From positions 18,414,001 through 18,478,000 of the forward strand of contig NC_135251.1 in assembly GCF_964204865.1 (NCBI RefSeq): a stretch of DNA of 64,000 bases, read 5' to 3'. The stretch's first letter is position 1; each line of letters starts with the position of its first letter. This document shows positions 1-18,000 of the stretch, in pieces. A program made the position numbers. Source of the stretch: Styela clava. Its lineage: Eukaryota.

Positions 1-3000
1 ACGAAGAAAGTTGTGGAAATTTCTTACAATTGCATGAGAAATTTGTTTTTTAATCTCTAGGTTCAACAATTTAATTCAGATTTAATTACAATTCAGTCTG
101 ACACTATCGTAGCGTATGGAAATAGTAAATGTGACGTCACGTGTAGTCATGAAATGAATGGAATCTTATCTCGGTGAATTAGAGAACCAACTTTTATGTA
201 TAACAACATTTATACGGAATACGTGGAACATAAATTTAAAATAGACAATTTAATTTTGATATGTAAATACCAAATTGAAAATCAAGCTTTCATTCAAAAA
301 TATGTAACTAATTGTTTTAATTTTTTTCGATATCATTACGAATATACTTTTGTTAAATCCATCATATCAAAAATTAATATATATATATATATACCTGGAG
401 TGCAAAATTGGTCTACGACAGTAGTTTCACCAATATCAAAATGCTTAATATTAAATCCTATAAATTGAATTGGAATTTGAAAGTACTAAAATGATTCAAT
501 GACAAGAAAGTATAAAATAAAATATATATCTCTTCTGAAGCAATCGCAGCAAAGTATGAATCTTACAATCATTATTTAGTTAGCGCAATTACGATCCGCG
601 ATTTCCGGGAACAACCCTTAGATACTCTTGCATCAGCGTGAGCCATAAATCCTATTTTCATTAAAACCATCCCATACCGCTGTATGAAGGTTATCGCATT
701 GTTTGACGTTAAAATAACAATTGGTTCCATCAATTTTGTGTGAGCGCATCTAGAGCATCTTGCCGGCAAATTCTACCACTTAATTTGAGCGCTTGTATAT
801 TGATTGGTGTCGCTCTCGTTAGCTTTCTAGAAGTATTATCATGTCATAACTCAATTGACTCAGAGATTGAAGCCTGATGAAATTAATAGTATGAAGCTGA
901 TAGGACATTTTAAAATATTCTGTATCATATTTAAAGTTTGATGAATGTGAAAAAATTACATAAAGTTTAATAAAGATTGCTCGGCGCCTCAAATATTCTA
1001 GACACTTCAATAGACCACTACTGAGCGAAGATAATGAGTTGTAGTTACATTAGATGTGGGTTGAATAGTAGTTGAAATATACAGCTTATACATTTATCAA
1101 TCATTTCTTTTCTTCGAAATTAGGATAAATTTCGAACGACTTCATGTAGTTGCAGATTGCAGTATGACAGAATTTGTATTGTTCCTGCAATTATCATATA
1201 TTTTGTTACTCTATAGTTTTCACGATAAAAGAGTTCAAAGGAAAGTAGATATGAGTAAAAGCGAATACACGAAGATTAGAATCCCTACTATTAAACATAC
1301 GCGTCTGCATATAAATATAAAAATTACGGGGGAAAAAATCGTACACTTGTTACATAAAAACTAATTCAATTTGAGCAATCGGAATACCAGCATTGCGAGT
1401 ATTTTATACTGACATAATCTAAGGTCATATATAATGAGTGATGGTATACGATAACCAGGGATAAAACTGAAAGTTTATAACAAAGTTAATTAGTTAGATG
1501 TTTATAATATTCTTTTGAGATCTATCTAGAAATAACATTTAGAATCATTTACCAACGTCTTAACCATTCCTTGTCTGCAATCACGCAAATCTTTTACTGC
1601 GCGGAAAACATCAACTTTATTCTCATATTTCAATCTCTCTATCAAATTTGAGATTGCGCAAAATGCTCCAGTTCGTCCAGCACCATCGCTATAAATATAC
1701 GTCAAAATGGATGTTTAATGTTTGTAACATTATCACTTATCAATTGAAAATTGGCATGTATAAAAATTTATACTAAATTACGTACGTGCAGTGAATAAGA
1801 CAAGCTGATCCCCGAACACCTCTTGTATTTCTCTGCATCTCCCCAATAATATCCAATACAATGCTACCATCTTCTGGACATTGTTCATTACTCCAGTCAG
1901 AATATTGTATTTGTGTAACACGAGTCTGAAATAATAAAATAATCGGATGTTTGGTAAAAATTTTGAACTGTATGTTCGCCTTGATTTGTTTGTTTTGCAA
2001 TATCTAAATTTAGCACTTAACTACGCAAACCTTGCTAGTATCGAAGTTAAAACATGCGTTGAAAATTAGTTTTAATATCAACAATGTTTACCTCCTGGTT
2101 TCTCTGAGGACTTTAAAAAATCTATGAGATATCGATCCATTTATATTCTCTCCCAGCAAGGTAACACTAACGTTATCTATTCTTAACGGTTCGCAAAACC
2201 TTTGTGGCCAATATTGAATGCACTCCTGTGTATAGAAGCAAAAAGATTGTATTTCATTGAACAATGTCATTATTTACTATAGATGTTTTCAAAATTATAA
2301 TTTAGTTCTATGAAGATGATAGGCCTATAATATATAACAACAAATAATAACATAACAAGCTATACTTTAAAAAATGTTATGCTTTTATAAGTAAACATCG
2401 GTTACATTTTATGGTGGGATAGTGACCAGATGAAAGTTGTCCAGCGATTAGATCACTCCTTGCAATATAGACTCCACTCATCTTATACCATAGATCAGGG
2501 TGGTCCAGACCGCAGAACAAATTTAGCTTATACTTAACCATTGGCAGATATTTGTATTTATTGGCAGACCATTTTTGAGGTATTTTTATACAATTCCAAC
2601 TTGGAATAGCCTCTTCCCTAATCCCGACGTCGAGATTGATGTTTGTTAAAATCCCGGAATTTCAATGTTATATCTATAAACCTCAAGACGGTGCCAATAT
2701 GGGAATAACTTCCTGTGATCGTAACAAGGAGAATGCATTGTCTTGTGCAACAATGCCGATAAGATGAGCCGCGCAAGTAACTGCTCATTTGGAGAGACGC
2801 TTTGTGCCTTCATTTTAGTAAAAACACTCCTCTATTTTCAAGCGTTGGCCATGTGACAGCAGTGACAAATCGCAGAGCTTACTTAGCGCCGCGCGATCCA
2901 AACATTTTTTAGCTTGGTCTGGAGTCCCAATTTAGACGGACATGGTTGCTCATTGACGATAGTACCAAGCCTGATCACTCTACATGTAATAAAATTAGTC

Positions 3001-15000: not shown

Positions 15001-18000
15001 GAGATAGAAAACAAAATCGTAATAAAATGATTATTTCAAAGCACGAGTAAATTAATTTCTTTATTATTCAAAAGTGATGACGCCTAAAATGCGATTTATA
15101 GGCGTCAGCGTTTCGAATATTACATATTTATTGACGCGGGGATATTTATTATATATATACCTAATGTAAAACCGTCGATAAAATGAAGCATCACCTTCTG
15201 ACTGTATCATAAACGTCATCTTTCACAGAGCTAACATCAAGTTGAACAAGACTTGATCTGCTGTTCTCACAAAACGATTTTGCTTGTGGCCAGGTCGAGG
15301 CAGTGTTGTGAAATGTGAGTTCATAAAATGGCTTGTTCACTTTTATCCAAGGTCCTAAATCATATAAAATCATAATGAACAGTGAACACAAAAATTATAA
15401 ATTGATCATGGGGATAATAACATTAGAATATTACGGATACCAAGTGACATACATGATTGATTTAAGTAATATCGACATGTTTCCTTCATCACCAAAATTT
15501 CAACAAATGTCTATGCTACTGACAGAAGAAAAACAACAAATACAACAAATTAATATATTGTTTGTCAAAGCACATAGTTTATCAATTACTGAGAAAAACG
15601 TACCATTGCATACATGCAAATTATCGTTGCTTATTATAACTATCATTACAAAAATCAAATAAAACTCAGCATTTACTTTACTATATACCTGCAATTGATG
15701 TTGCAAGAAATGTTAACATAACAAACCAGCAATTGATTCCAATCATATTAGTGGCGTTAAATAACCATAGGAAGCATAATGTTATTAAGAGCAATATTTC
15801 AAAATGCTACATCACTGAATGAAAATCACGCTATATAATTTATTCCGCAACCTAAAAAGAACCTTATATCAGGATTGAAAATAGGGAATACAATATAATT
15901 ATAGTCTGCGTCTACTTATATTCCCAATATGCAAAATCCCACATTGTGTATATGTTTTTTACATCCTACATAACGGATCTGAATACATTATGAGATGCCG
16001 GCCTATGTATTTACATAACAAGAGTCCGCGGCGCGAAAATTTGCTTTAAGAAGTAACAATGTTTTTGATAATAATGCGAAAATTGTCTTGGTCTGCTCTG
16101 TTTATTACTTTTTTTTATTCAAGTTTATTATTTTGTTTATTCATGATGCTGTAATTGTATTTACTGTTCAATATAGTTTAAGAATACAATTGATGAAAGA
16201 CGTTGATAAATTAAAGTTTAATAATTGTGTTAAATGATTTACACTTCTTGATACTTTCGTTCGTTAAATCTAAAATGTGACCAGGTCGAGGCAGTGTTGT
16301 GAAATGTGAGTTCATAAAATGGCTTGTTCACTTTTTTCCAAGGTCCTAAATCCTATAAAATCATAATGAACAGTGAACACAAAAATTATAAATTGATCAC
16401 GGGGATAATAACATTAGAATATTACGGATACCGAGTGACATACATGATTGATTTAAGTAATATTGACATGGTTACTTTATCACCAAAATTTAAACAAATG
16501 TCTATGCTACTGACAAAAGAAAAACAACAAATACAACAAATTAATATATTGGTTGTCAATGCACATGATTTATCGATTACTGAGAAAAACCATTGCATAC
16601 CGAATGCAAATTATTGTTGCTTATTACATTTATCAAAACATACATGATTGATTTAGGTAATATCGACATGATTACTTTATCACCAAAATTTCAACAAAAG
16701 TCTAAGCTACTAACAAAAGAAAAACAACAAATTAATTTATTTGTTTTTAATGCACATGATTTATCAATTACTGAAAAAAACGTACCACTGCATACTACAT
16801 GCAAATTATCGTTGCTTATTATAATTATCAAAACAAAAATCAAATAAAACTTAGCATTTACTTTACTACACCTGCAATTGATGTTGCAAGAAATGTTAAC
16901 ATAACAAACCAACAATTGATTCCTATCATATTAGTGGCGTCAAATAACTATAGGAAGTATAATGTTATTATGAGCAATATTTCAAAATGCTACATCACTG
17001 AATTAAAATCACGCTATATAATTTATTCCGCAACATAAAAATACTGTATATCAGAATTGAAAATAGCGAATACAATATAATTATAGTCTGCGTCTACTTA
17101 TATTCCCAATATGCAAAATCCCACATTGTGTTTATGTTTTTTACATCCTACATAACGGATCTCTGAATACATTGAGAGATGCCTGCCTATGTATTTACAT
17201 AACAAGAGTCCGCTGCGCAAAAATTTGCTTTAAGAATTAACAATGTTTTTGATAATAATGCGAAAATTGTGTTGGTCTGCTCTTTTTATTGCTTTTTTTT
17301 ATTCAAGTTTATTATTTTGTTTATTCATGATGCTGTAATTGTATTTACTGTTCAATATAGTTTAAGAATACAAGTGATGAAAGACGTTGATAAATTAAAG
17401 TTTAATAATTGTGTTAAATGATTTACACTTCTTGATACTTTCGTTCGTTAAATCTAAAATGTTTCGGTTTAATCTAATGAATAGGGTAATGTCTAAAACT
17501 GTTTAGCCTATTTAGATCCAGCGAATGAGCTTATAGGCATTTCATTTTAAAATGCTGTAGTTGGCCAGTATTGTCCATTCAACAATTGCAATAATTTCCT
17601 AAAATATATAAATTATATTAAATTATAATATATATATATTAAACAATTTCATGACTATACATATCATCGAGCACAAATTTGTATGTACATCGAAATATTT
17701 TATCAATTTACAAAATTCTTTAATTGATTAAATCAATACTCACTTGATCTTCAAAAAAATAAATAAAACATTTAATACAAAGTAAAATCTGTCATACAAC
17801 CGGTATTTGTCCGAAGTTGTTTTCAAACTTATGCTATCCCTCATGCTTTCTATTTGGATTTGTCAGTAAATGTTTGTCGACATGAATTCTTTCATCACCT
17901 GAAATACGTTATCCTTTTATGAGCATATTTTAGATACTTTAACCTTCAGTTTCTTCCCATGATCGATGTATCGTAGCGGAAGTCCGGGAATTTGGTTTTT

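What the first reader, a model, noticed from the sequence alone, without database searches (positions are those of the whole stretch)
1101..15354. Lectin-tipped receptor tyrosine phosphatase (CTLD-Ig-FN3-FN3-PTP D1-D2)
Seen: three CTLD exons, one Ig exon, two FN3 domains and a juxtamembrane module splice in frame, upstream of tandem PTP exons on the same strand. Known: vertebrate RPTP subtypes use Ig, FN3, MAM or carbonic anhydrase ectodomains, not an N-terminal C-type lectin. I recall lectin-bearing RPTPs from some invertebrate deuterostomes but cannot verify that here. The lectin has EPG in place of EPN/QPD, LSD in place of WND, and Tyr where the inner Cys is expected (EENY), so classical Ca-sugar binding is doubtful. 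Inference: a lineage-specific family of inhibitory recognition receptors coupling a lectin-fold sensor directly to a phosphatase.
Basis: partly seen in the sequence, partly recalled or inferred. Interest (0 to 1): 0.7.

Follow-up and report, generated by a model that had tools for sequence, protein, structure and literature searches.

The report
Broken lectin-tipped tyrosine phosphatase receptor gene

Summary
The window is Styela clava. One minus-strand gene of 30 exons runs from 15746 to 1101. [quoted passage not shown] All splice sites are AG/GT.

The two halves do not join as assembled:
- The transmembrane exon is a 21-base remnant with an in-frame stop (7078-7058).
- An in-frame TAG ends D1 (4379-4377).
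- One D2 exon is a base short (2225-2092).

NCBI annotates only the ectodomain, as a 604-aa uncharacterized protein. The one phosphatase-half exon that could retrieve the locus's own model found no database protein.

A paralog on another chromosome is collinear and intact, with a transmembrane segment and D1-D2. Five of the six phosphatase-bearing proteins among the best 150 relatives also carry a lectin domain, one below Pfam's cut-off. Other relatives pair the same ectodomain with short YxxI/V tails.

Verdict: a decaying, at most secreted, member of a real lineage-specific lectin-tipped receptor phosphatase family. Interest is modest.

The parts
15689..15746 (-).
   Evidence: tblastn of P0001 residues 1-20; exon table
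15195..15354 (-). E2, CTLD part 1 (first helix and the outer Cys)
   Evidence: 100% identity to P0001; phase 1 to 2
14609..14704 (-). E3, CTLD part 2 (WIG motif)
   Evidence: Lectin_C E 4.5e-4, 21.4 bits on the exon alone
14296..14408 (-). E4, CTLD part 3 with EPG, EENY, LSD and the last Cys
12135..12425 (-). E5, Ig I-set domain
   Evidence: I-set E 3.3e-12 on the ORF holding the exon
11741..11843 (-). E6, FN3-1 first half
   Evidence: fn3 match at P0001 243-315
10862..10982 (-). E7, FN3-1 second half
10565..10747 (-). E8, FN3-2 first half
   Evidence: fn3 match in the paralog P0003 321-399
10071..10278 (-). E9, FN3-2 second half
8579..8681 (-). E10, juxtamembrane module
   Evidence: beta-rich domain 464-596 in the model
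8165..8296 (-). E11, juxtamembrane module
7619..7768 (-). E12, juxtamembrane module
7279..7364 (-). E13, last intact ectodomain exon; ends in phase 1
7058..7078 (-). E14r, 21-base remnant of the transmembrane exon. It has AG/GT borders, reads D-E-W-K-T then stop, and leaves phase 1 where the next exon needs phase 2
   Evidence: The paralog P0003 has the same five residues followed by a 22-residue hydrophobic segment. Window reading. No hydrophobic window was found in the interval
6488..6552 (-). E15, basic stop-transfer and cytoplasmic juxtamembrane exon. The NCBI model enters it in the wrong frame and ends D-G-E-stop
6276..6418 (-). E16, start of the D1 region
   Evidence: no database protein holds it
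5865..5961 (-).
5633..5697 (-). E18, D1
   Evidence: Y_phosphatase E 0.0086
5333..5467 (-). E19, D1
   Evidence: Y_phosphatase E 1e-16
5133..5264 (-). E20, D1
4843..4994 (-). E21, D1 (WPD loop and His-Cys of the signature)
   Evidence: Y_phosphatase E 4.2e-10
4585..4720 (-). E22, D1 (rest of the active-site signature)
   Evidence: Y_phosphatase E 2.2e-11
4300..4403 (-). E23, end of D1 and the D1-D2 linker; holds the nonsense codon
4377..4379 (-). In-frame TAG where all four close paralog models have Leu
4049..4179 (-). E24, D2
3892..3968 (-). E25, D2
3678..3800 (-). E26, D2
   Evidence: Y_phosphatase E 6.6e-10
2092..2225 (-). E27, D2 exon of 134 bases. It enters in phase 0 and leaves in phase 2 while E28 needs phase 0. 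The paralog sequence is matched in one frame up to about 2105 and in another frame after it, which fits the loss of one base
1786..1925 (-). E28, D2 (WSN in place of WPD; His-Cys)
   Evidence: Y_phosphatase E 4.1e-4
1553..1688 (-). E29, D2 signature
   Evidence: Y_phosphatase E 1.2e-11
1101..1184 (-). E30, C-terminal exon with TGA at 1103-1101
   Evidence: 92% identity to the C-terminus of P0003
16269..16929 (-). Upstream tandem duplicate. It holds a second copy of E1 (16929-16870) and of the first part of E2 (16346-16269)
   Evidence: direct repeats at 94-97% identity with spacing 991-1185; tblastn

Best explanation
The locus is a decaying copy of a lineage-specific receptor tyrosine phosphatase gene of Styela clava.

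The ancestral gene encoded, in order:
- a signal peptide
- a CTLD
- an Ig domain
- two FN3 domains
- a long juxtamembrane module
- a transmembrane segment
- an active D1
- a D2 that lacks the WPD Asp.

In this copy about 60 bases have gone from the inside of the transmembrane exon. That figure is inferred from the paralog protein. The ectodomain reading frame now ends just after the juxtamembrane module, whether the 21-base remnant is included (stop inside it) or skipped (D-G-E-stop, as in the NCBI model).

The most this locus can make is therefore a secreted CTLD-Ig-FN3 protein of about 600 residues. The phosphatase exons behind it are no longer translated with it, and they have begun to collect lesions (a TAG at the end of D1 and a one-base loss in D2).

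Shown here: the exon structure, the three lesions, the collinear intact paralog, and the lectin-bearing phosphatase relatives.

Inferred, not shown:
- In intact family members the non-classical CTLD binds a ligand without the usual Ca-sugar site.
- That binding brings D1 to phosphotyrosine substrates at the membrane.
- The product of this locus, if made, acts as a soluble competitor for the same ligand.
For: Organism and public annotation.
- CTLD exon E2 is 100% identical to NCBI 'uncharacterized protein LOC120335420 [Styela clava]' (P0001, 604 aa). It was the 1 hit among 3 candidates.
- P0001 carries Lectin_C, I-set and fn3 and no phosphatase domain.
- P0001 maps to E1-E13 and ends in E15 out of frame.
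- Exon E16 found no database protein (0 of 3 candidates).
- The D1 ORF found only paralogs, at 55-57% identity over an ORF that includes an intron (4 of 62 candidates).

One ancestral gene.
- P0003 aligns to the window from residue 110 to residue 1198.
- The only gaps are residues 487-493, which are divergent, and residues 572-590, which lie in the transmembrane segment.
- P0001 and P0003 are 60% identical over 484 residues.

Lesions.
- The exon table has AG/GT at every border and shows the three frame failures.
- No hydrophobic window is encoded between E13 and E15.
- P0003 and all 6 phosphatase-bearing relatives have a transmembrane segment at that place.

Weak sign of relaxed constraint.
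- The window differs at 4 of 100 columns that are invariant in seven family members.
- The three close paralogs together differ at 1 of 291 such columns (Fisher p 0.016).
- After scaling for the window's greater divergence, Poisson p is 0.03.
Against: - All 30 exons keep AG/GT borders.
- D1 keeps the KNRY, WPD, active-site and Q-loop motifs, and 82% identity to the paralog. Any decay is therefore young, or some lesions could be assembly errors.
- The one-base loss lies in a short purine run, the kind of place where long-read assemblies slip.
- Another gene in the window (31098-31941) also shows a frame break. Assembly slips therefore cannot be excluded.
- Three lesions in the cytoplasmic half against none in the ectodomain half is not significant by itself (about 1 in 8).
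- No transcript, read or second-haplotype data could be consulted.
- The exon borders of the paralog are inferred from protein only, so the size of the deletion is an estimate.
Confidence: 0.62

Rival explanations
1. The locus encodes an intact lectin-tipped receptor phosphatase, and the three lesions are errors of the assembly or belong to one defective haplotype.
For: - Exon order, strand and splice sites are all as expected.
- D1 motifs are intact.
- An intact paralog proves that the design works.
- Another gene in the window has a frame break.
- The one-base loss is in a purine run.
Against: - A loss of about 60 bases inside an exon and a base substitution to TAG are not typical slips of a polished assembly.
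- The NCBI pipeline did not build a receptor model here and stopped at 604 aa.
- Exon E16 is in no database protein.
- There are three independent lesions within about 5 kb.
Confidence: 0.15
2. Two working genes. One is a secreted CTLD-Ig-FN3 protein. The other is a cytosolic single-domain phosphatase started from the ATG inside E15, or from a later one, and ended by the TAG after the Q-loop.
For: - E15 holds an in-frame ATG ahead of D1.
- The TAG lies after all the D1 catalytic motifs.
- Paralog models P0002 and P0004 (538 aa) also start inside the cytoplasmic part.
Against: - No database protein holds E16.
- The truncated paralog models may simply be incomplete.
- No promoter or transcript evidence could be consulted.
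- The frameshift in D2 shows that this part is not maintained.
Confidence: 0.08
3. The whole locus, ectodomain included, is a dead pseudogene. On this reading the 604-aa NCBI protein is only what a gene predictor could salvage.
For: - The predicted protein ends in a frame-shifted exon.
- A stop codon so far upstream of many further splice junctions would normally expose the mRNA to nonsense-mediated decay (established knowledge, not tested here).
Against: - Thirteen ectodomain exons, about 1.8 kb in all, carry no stop or frameshift.
- The lectin variant (EPG-like site, loss of the inner Cys pair) is shared with three other database proteins. It is therefore a conserved subtype and not decay.
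- The fold is predicted with mean pLDDT 79.7.
Confidence: 0.12

Closest known systems
Styela clava LOC120342430 (P0003, 1198 aa, named 'uncharacterized protein' by NCBI) and its near copies P0002, P0004 and P0005
   Same: - Same exon-by-exon order from Ig to the C-terminus.
- 60% identity in the ectodomain and about 82% in the cytoplasmic part.
- Same D2 with WSN in place of WPD.
   Different: - P0003 has an intact transmembrane segment and an open D1-D2.
- Its N-terminal lectin-like domain is a short form without the long loop. Pfam does not detect it at E 0.001 or better.
- It lies on another chromosome-sized contig.
Vertebrate tandem-domain receptor phosphatases: type R2A (LAR, PTP sigma, PTP delta), R4 (PTP alpha, epsilon) and CD45
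   Same: - Tandem D1-D2.
- The paralog's cytoplasmic part scores about equally against PTPRS, LAR, PTPRA, PTPRE and CD45 (E 1e-103 to 1e-94).
- The Ig and FN3 array resembles the PTP sigma/delta, PTPRM and CD45 ectodomains by fold.
   Different: - No single vertebrate type is clearly the closest.
- There is only one Ig and two FN3, plus a long membrane-proximal module.
- There is an N-terminal CTLD. A 2024 review of human receptor phosphatase ectodomains mentions C-type lectins once, and only as substrates or partners (passages seen; PMC10815196).
Sea urchin 'PTPRLec' receptor phosphatases (Byrum et al. 2006, Dev Biol 300:194)
   Same: As I recall the abstract, sea-urchin-specific receptor phosphatases with lectin domains were proposed to act in immune defence.
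   Different: - This is recalled only. The paper is not held, and only its reference entry was seen.
- A full-text search for the name found 0 papers.
- Relatedness to the Styela family was not tested.
Paired immune receptors of vertebrates (one ectodomain type with activating or inhibitory tails) and soluble decoy forms
   Same: - Relatives share this ectodomain. They carry tandem phosphatase domains, or a short tail with YxxI/L/V motifs (8 of 9 tails examined), or no anchor at all.
   Different: - No binding or signalling data exist.
- Here the inhibitory arm would be a direct enzyme fusion, not an ITIM that recruits a phosphatase.
- The organisms of the unnamed relatives are unknown.

Membership tests
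Classical receptor-type protein tyrosine phosphatase | Signal peptide and extracellular domains | tested here: met
   E1-E13 are open and identical to P0001. CTLD, Ig and fn3 are found by Pfam.
Classical receptor-type protein tyrosine phosphatase | A single transmembrane segment between the ectodomain and the phosphatase | tested here: not met
   Only a 21-base remnant with a stop is left. No hydrophobic window is encoded between 7279 and 6552. The segment is present in P0003 and in 6 of 6 phosphatase-bearing relatives.
Classical receptor-type protein tyrosine phosphatase | D1 with the KNRY, WPD, HCxxGxxR(S/T) and Q-loop motifs | tested here: met
   All are present in E17-E23. The motif names are from established knowledge.
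Classical receptor-type protein tyrosine phosphatase | One open reading frame from ectodomain to C-terminus | tested here: not met
   There is a frame failure at E13/E14r/E15, a TAG at 4379-4377, and E27 is one base short.
C-type lectin-like domain (fold family) | Match to the Lectin_C profile, WIG motif and outer Cys pair | tested here: met
   Lectin_C scores 39.1 bits (cut-off 22.6) on P0001 residues 38-140. PDB matches include PLA2R, Ly75, MRC2 and langerin. The model shows the two helices and the strands at pLDDT 71-89.
Ca-dependent sugar-binding C-type lectin | EPN or QPD triplet together with WND at the principal Ca site | tested here: not met
   The locus has EPG and LSD. Three relatives keep EPN and one has QPD, but none of the 11 aligned domains has WND.
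Ca-dependent sugar-binding C-type lectin | Inner Cys pair of the long-loop region | tested here: not met
   Both Cys are replaced (Tyr and Ser). The same loss is seen in P0009, P0052 and P0020.
Ca-dependent sugar-binding C-type lectin | Measured sugar binding | not testable with these tools
   Needs recombinant protein and a glycan array.

The most novel reading that the evidence does not exclude
The locus belongs to a tunicate multigene receptor family in which one ectodomain design (CTLD, Ig, two FN3, long juxtamembrane module) is coupled to three outputs:
- a directly fused tandem phosphatase
- short tails with YxxI/V docking motifs
- anchorless secreted forms.

That would be an invertebrate-chordate counterpart of paired activating and inhibitory immune receptors, with the inhibitory arm being the enzyme itself. 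On this reading the window shows one member caught just after it was converted from a receptor phosphatase into a soluble decoy by deletion of the transmembrane exon.
Probability: 0.2. Interest if true: 0.65.

Novelty: new member of a known kind. Interest (0 to 1): 0.33.

Why it matters
For this locus the result is corrective. The attractive spliced receptor cannot be made from the sequence as assembled, and the public annotation already treats the lectin part as a separate protein.

At family level, lectin-tipped receptor phosphatases do exist intact in Styela. They also exist in several diverged database proteins, beside siblings with tyrosine-motif tails. These carry no informative public names, and I found no paper on them in the library held. 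If the family proves to be a recognition system of hemocytes, it would show a way of wiring inhibition (sensor fused to enzyme) that vertebrate immune receptors reach only indirectly.

Tried and rejected
- Exon-by-exon Pfam scans. Of 23 stop-to-stop pieces, 7 hit Y_phosphatase, 1 hit Ig and 15 hit nothing, among them all the CTLD and FN3 pieces. Of 11 in-frame ectodomain exons at E up to 1, only E3 hit Lectin_C, below the cut-off; one hit was spurious and 9 had none.
- A transmembrane exon hidden in the E13-E15 intron: none was found.
- Skipping E14r and E15. E13 to E16 keeps the frame (phase 1 to 1). It gives no membrane anchor and still meets the TAG.
- An alternative 3' end with a tyrosine-motif tail, as in P0007. 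No such exon lies on the gene's strand. There is only a relic on the opposite strand at 18713-18811.
- A second lectin-like domain between E4 and E5, as in P0009 and P0003: no match.
The protein atlas gave only generic phosphatase clusters with scores below 0.9.
- Literature. Nine searches found no paper in the held library on a lectin-bearing receptor phosphatase of tunicates. Byrum et al. 2006 is not held. A table in PMC514892 lists a Fugu 'PTP-GMC1' among CTLD-containing proteins; only the table row was seen. PMC11788884 and PMC2394772 name both Pfam domains, but not as a pair (passages seen).
- The structure search on the whole ectodomain model returned Ig/FN3 arrays only and added nothing on the lectin domain.

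
Full report
**Source and method**

The window has 28-41% G+C and no N. Searches were made exon by exon or on uninterrupted stretches of the window, and with database proteins that those searches returned.

The first CTLD exon (15352-15197, minus strand) matched one protein of 3 candidates at 100% identity. That protein is NCBI 'uncharacterized protein LOC120335420 [Styela clava]', 604 aa, on a contig of 31.3 Mb (P0001). 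The window is therefore from the ascidian Styela clava. Nothing in it was taken for human.

**Anatomy**

I mapped P0001 and the paralog P0003 onto the window with tblastn and read the junctions by eye. This gives one minus-strand gene of 30 exons, every one with AG/GT borders.

| Exons | Coordinates | Content |
|---|---|---|
| E1 | 15746-15689 | signal peptide |
| E2-E4 | 15354-14296 | CTLD |
| E5 | 12425-12135 | Ig |
| E6-E9 | 11843-10071 | two FN3 domains |
| E10-E13 | 8681-7279 | beta-rich membrane-proximal module |
| E14r | 7078-7058 | 21-base remnant of the transmembrane exon |
| E15-E16 | 6552-6276 | cytoplasmic juxtamembrane stretch |
| E17-E23 | 5961-4300 | D1 |
| E24-E30 | 4179-1101 | D2, ending at the TGA |

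Pfam on P0001 gives Lectin_C at 39.1 bits (cut-off 22.6), I-set at E 2.8e-12 and fn3 at 27.4 bits. The second FN3 is seen by Pfam in the paralog.

An AlphaFold model of P0001, built with 20 relatives as the alignment, has mean pLDDT 79.7 and pTM 0.53. It shows a two-helix lectin fold at residues 21-143 followed by beta domains. Foldseek finds Ig/FN3 arrays, including the PTP sigma/delta, PTPRM and CD45 ectodomains.

Seven of the 23 stop-to-stop pieces scanned hit Y_phosphatase.

**The lectin domain**

The third CTLD exon has EPG at the EPN/QPD place and LSD at the WND place. It has Tyr where the inner Cys is expected, and the partner Cys is also gone.

In an alignment of 11 related domains, the loss of the Cys pair is shared by P0009, P0052 and P0020. 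Three relatives keep EPN and one has QPD. None has WND. The odd lectin is therefore a conserved subtype and not damage. Classical Ca-sugar binding is unlikely for this copy.

The paralog P0003 (LOC120342430, 1198 aa, on another 25.6-Mb contig) aligns to the window from residue 110 to residue 1198. The only gaps are the divergent residues 487-493 and residues 572-590 in its transmembrane segment.

*The transmembrane exon.* In P0003 the juxtamembrane module is followed by D-E-W-K-T, then a 22-residue hydrophobic segment, then a basic stretch. In the window the same five residues are encoded at 7078, just after a good acceptor. A stop follows at once and a donor lies 21 bases in. Read in the downstream frame, the last bases of the remnant complete an Arg codon with E15, as in the paralog.

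Both ends of the exon are thus kept and about 60 bases of its interior are missing. This is inferred from the paralog protein, whose own exon borders I could not see.

No frame between 7279 and 6552 encodes a hydrophobic 19-mer. With the remnant, translation stops inside it. Without it, E13 enters E15 out of frame and ends D-G-E-stop, which is exactly the end of the NCBI model. Skipping both E14r and E15 keeps the frame but gives no anchor.

*Two further lesions.*
- An in-frame TAG at 4379-4377, where all four paralog models have Leu. It lies just after the D1 Q-loop.
- E27 has 134 bases. The paralog sequence is followed in one frame up to about 2105 and in another frame from there to the donor. 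This fits the loss of one base in a purine run.

*Public annotation.* Exon E16 is in no database protein (0 of 3 candidates scored). The D1 stretch found only paralogs (4 of 62 candidates). The public annotation therefore does not translate the phosphatase half, as far as this database shows.

**Is the damage real?**

I could not see reads or transcripts.

- For real decay: three independent lesions of three kinds, all in the part that the first lesion uncouples from translation. There is also a weak excess of changes at family-invariant columns. The window differs at 4 of 100 such columns, against 1 of 291 in three close paralogs (Fisher p 0.016). After scaling for divergence, Poisson p is 0.03.
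- Against: D1 keeps all its catalytic motifs and every splice site is intact. The one-base loss is of a kind that assemblies produce. Another gene of the window also has a frame break.

I put an intact receptor at 0.15.

**The family**

A search of 1.84 billion representative proteins with P0001 gave 5651 hits at E up to 0.001. Most of the best 150 are giant Ig-repeat proteins. Six of the 150 carry a phosphatase active-site signature.

I scanned 17 of the 150 with Pfam, chosen because they match the query collinearly in few stretches.

| Result among the 17 | Count |
|---|---|
| Lectin_C at E up to 0.001 | 14 (13 above the cut-off) |
| Y_phosphatase | 6 |
| Both | 5 |

The five with both are P0038, P0062, P0075 (three lectin domains), P0103 (two lectin domains) and P0112 (sub-threshold).

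All six phosphatase-bearing proteins have a transmembrane segment after the juxtamembrane module, and so does P0003. They are 34-41% identical to P0003 over about 1000 residues. P0038 is 48% identical in the phosphatase part.

Nine relatives have the same ectodomain, a transmembrane segment and no phosphatase. Eight of those nine have one or more YxxI/L/V motifs in a short tail, often YE-x-I/V. P0006 is a paralog ectodomain that ends by reading into the intron after the E13 equivalent.

Their organisms stayed unknown.

**Comparison with the known**

The paralog's tandem phosphatase part is about equally close to PTPRS, LAR, PTPRA, PTPRE and CD45. The family is therefore a lineage-specific tandem-domain receptor phosphatase and not an orthologue of one vertebrate type.

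A 2024 review of human ectodomains mentions C-type lectins only as partners (passages seen). However, a 2004 table lists a Fugu phosphatase among CTLD proteins; I saw the table row only.

Lectin-bearing sea urchin phosphatases ('PTPRLec') are my recollection of Byrum et al. 2006. The paper is not held.

Nine searches of the held library found nothing on such receptors in tunicates. Subscription journals and supplements were not seen and may bear on this.

**Verdict**

The locus is best read as a young, decaying member that can at most yield a secreted lectin-Ig-FN3 protein (0.62). It is a new member of a known kind, of modest interest (0.33).

The boldest reading still open is a three-output recognition family, with this copy freshly turned into a soluble decoy (0.2).

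**What stayed unchecked**

- Styela reads, transcripts and paralog DNA.
- The accessions and taxa of the unnamed relatives.
- The closed collections metagenome contigs and viral contigs.
- Genome contigs, which holds only bacteria and archaea, was not used.

Noticed in passing
window 15285-17461: Tandem duplication upstream of the gene, with units of about 0.99-1.18 kb at 94-97% identity. It gives a second, identical signal-peptide exon (16929-16870) and a partial copy of the first CTLD exon (16346-16269). This could be an alternative first exon or just a repeat.
   Followed up: partly
window 18713-18811 (+ strand): Weak match with an in-frame stop (E 7e-4) to the last exon of relatives that end in a tyrosine-motif tail (P0007). 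It looks like the relic of a second family member, head to head with this gene.
   Followed up: partly
window 5306-5347 (- strand): A 21-base unit at the end of D1 exon E19 is duplicated in tandem, which gives two GT donors 21 bases apart. The second donor would add seven residues in frame.
   Followed up: no
window 3036-3218 (+) and 24510-24716 (-): Two copies of a short ORF with a Spin-doc type zinc finger (zf-C2H2_12, E 1.5e-7 and 6.3e-7). One lies inside the intron between D2 exons E26 and E27. Probably a dispersed mobile-element fragment.
   Followed up: partly
window 25579-26403 and 31098-31941 (+): Two intron-poor alpha/beta-hydrolase genes in tandem. The second is split into two overlapping frames near 31510-31568, which is either a frameshift or an assembly slip.
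   Followed up: partly
window 27396-29048 (+) and 37223-40387 (+): Two long single ORFs. One is 551 aa with a Myb_DNA-bind_7 domain. The other is 1055 aa with DUF4590 and leucine-rich repeats.
   Followed up: partly
window 59161-62307 (+): Exons with Sushi repeats (three ORFs, E 6e-12 to 3e-19) followed by a Somatomedin B domain. This is another extracellular multidomain gene at the far end of the window.
   Followed up: no
unnamed database proteins P0007, P0020, P0044, P0050, P0065, P0071, P0117, P0137: Relatives with the same ectodomain and a transmembrane segment but no phosphatase. Their short tails carry YxxI/L/V motifs: one ITIM-like motif in P0007 and P0050, and ITAM-like spacing in P0007 and P0020.
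   Followed up: partly
unnamed database protein P0013 (185 aa): It is 96% identical to residues 148-316 of the product of this locus, but it continues differently after the FN3-1 exon. This points to a very recent second copy or another haplotype.
   Followed up: no
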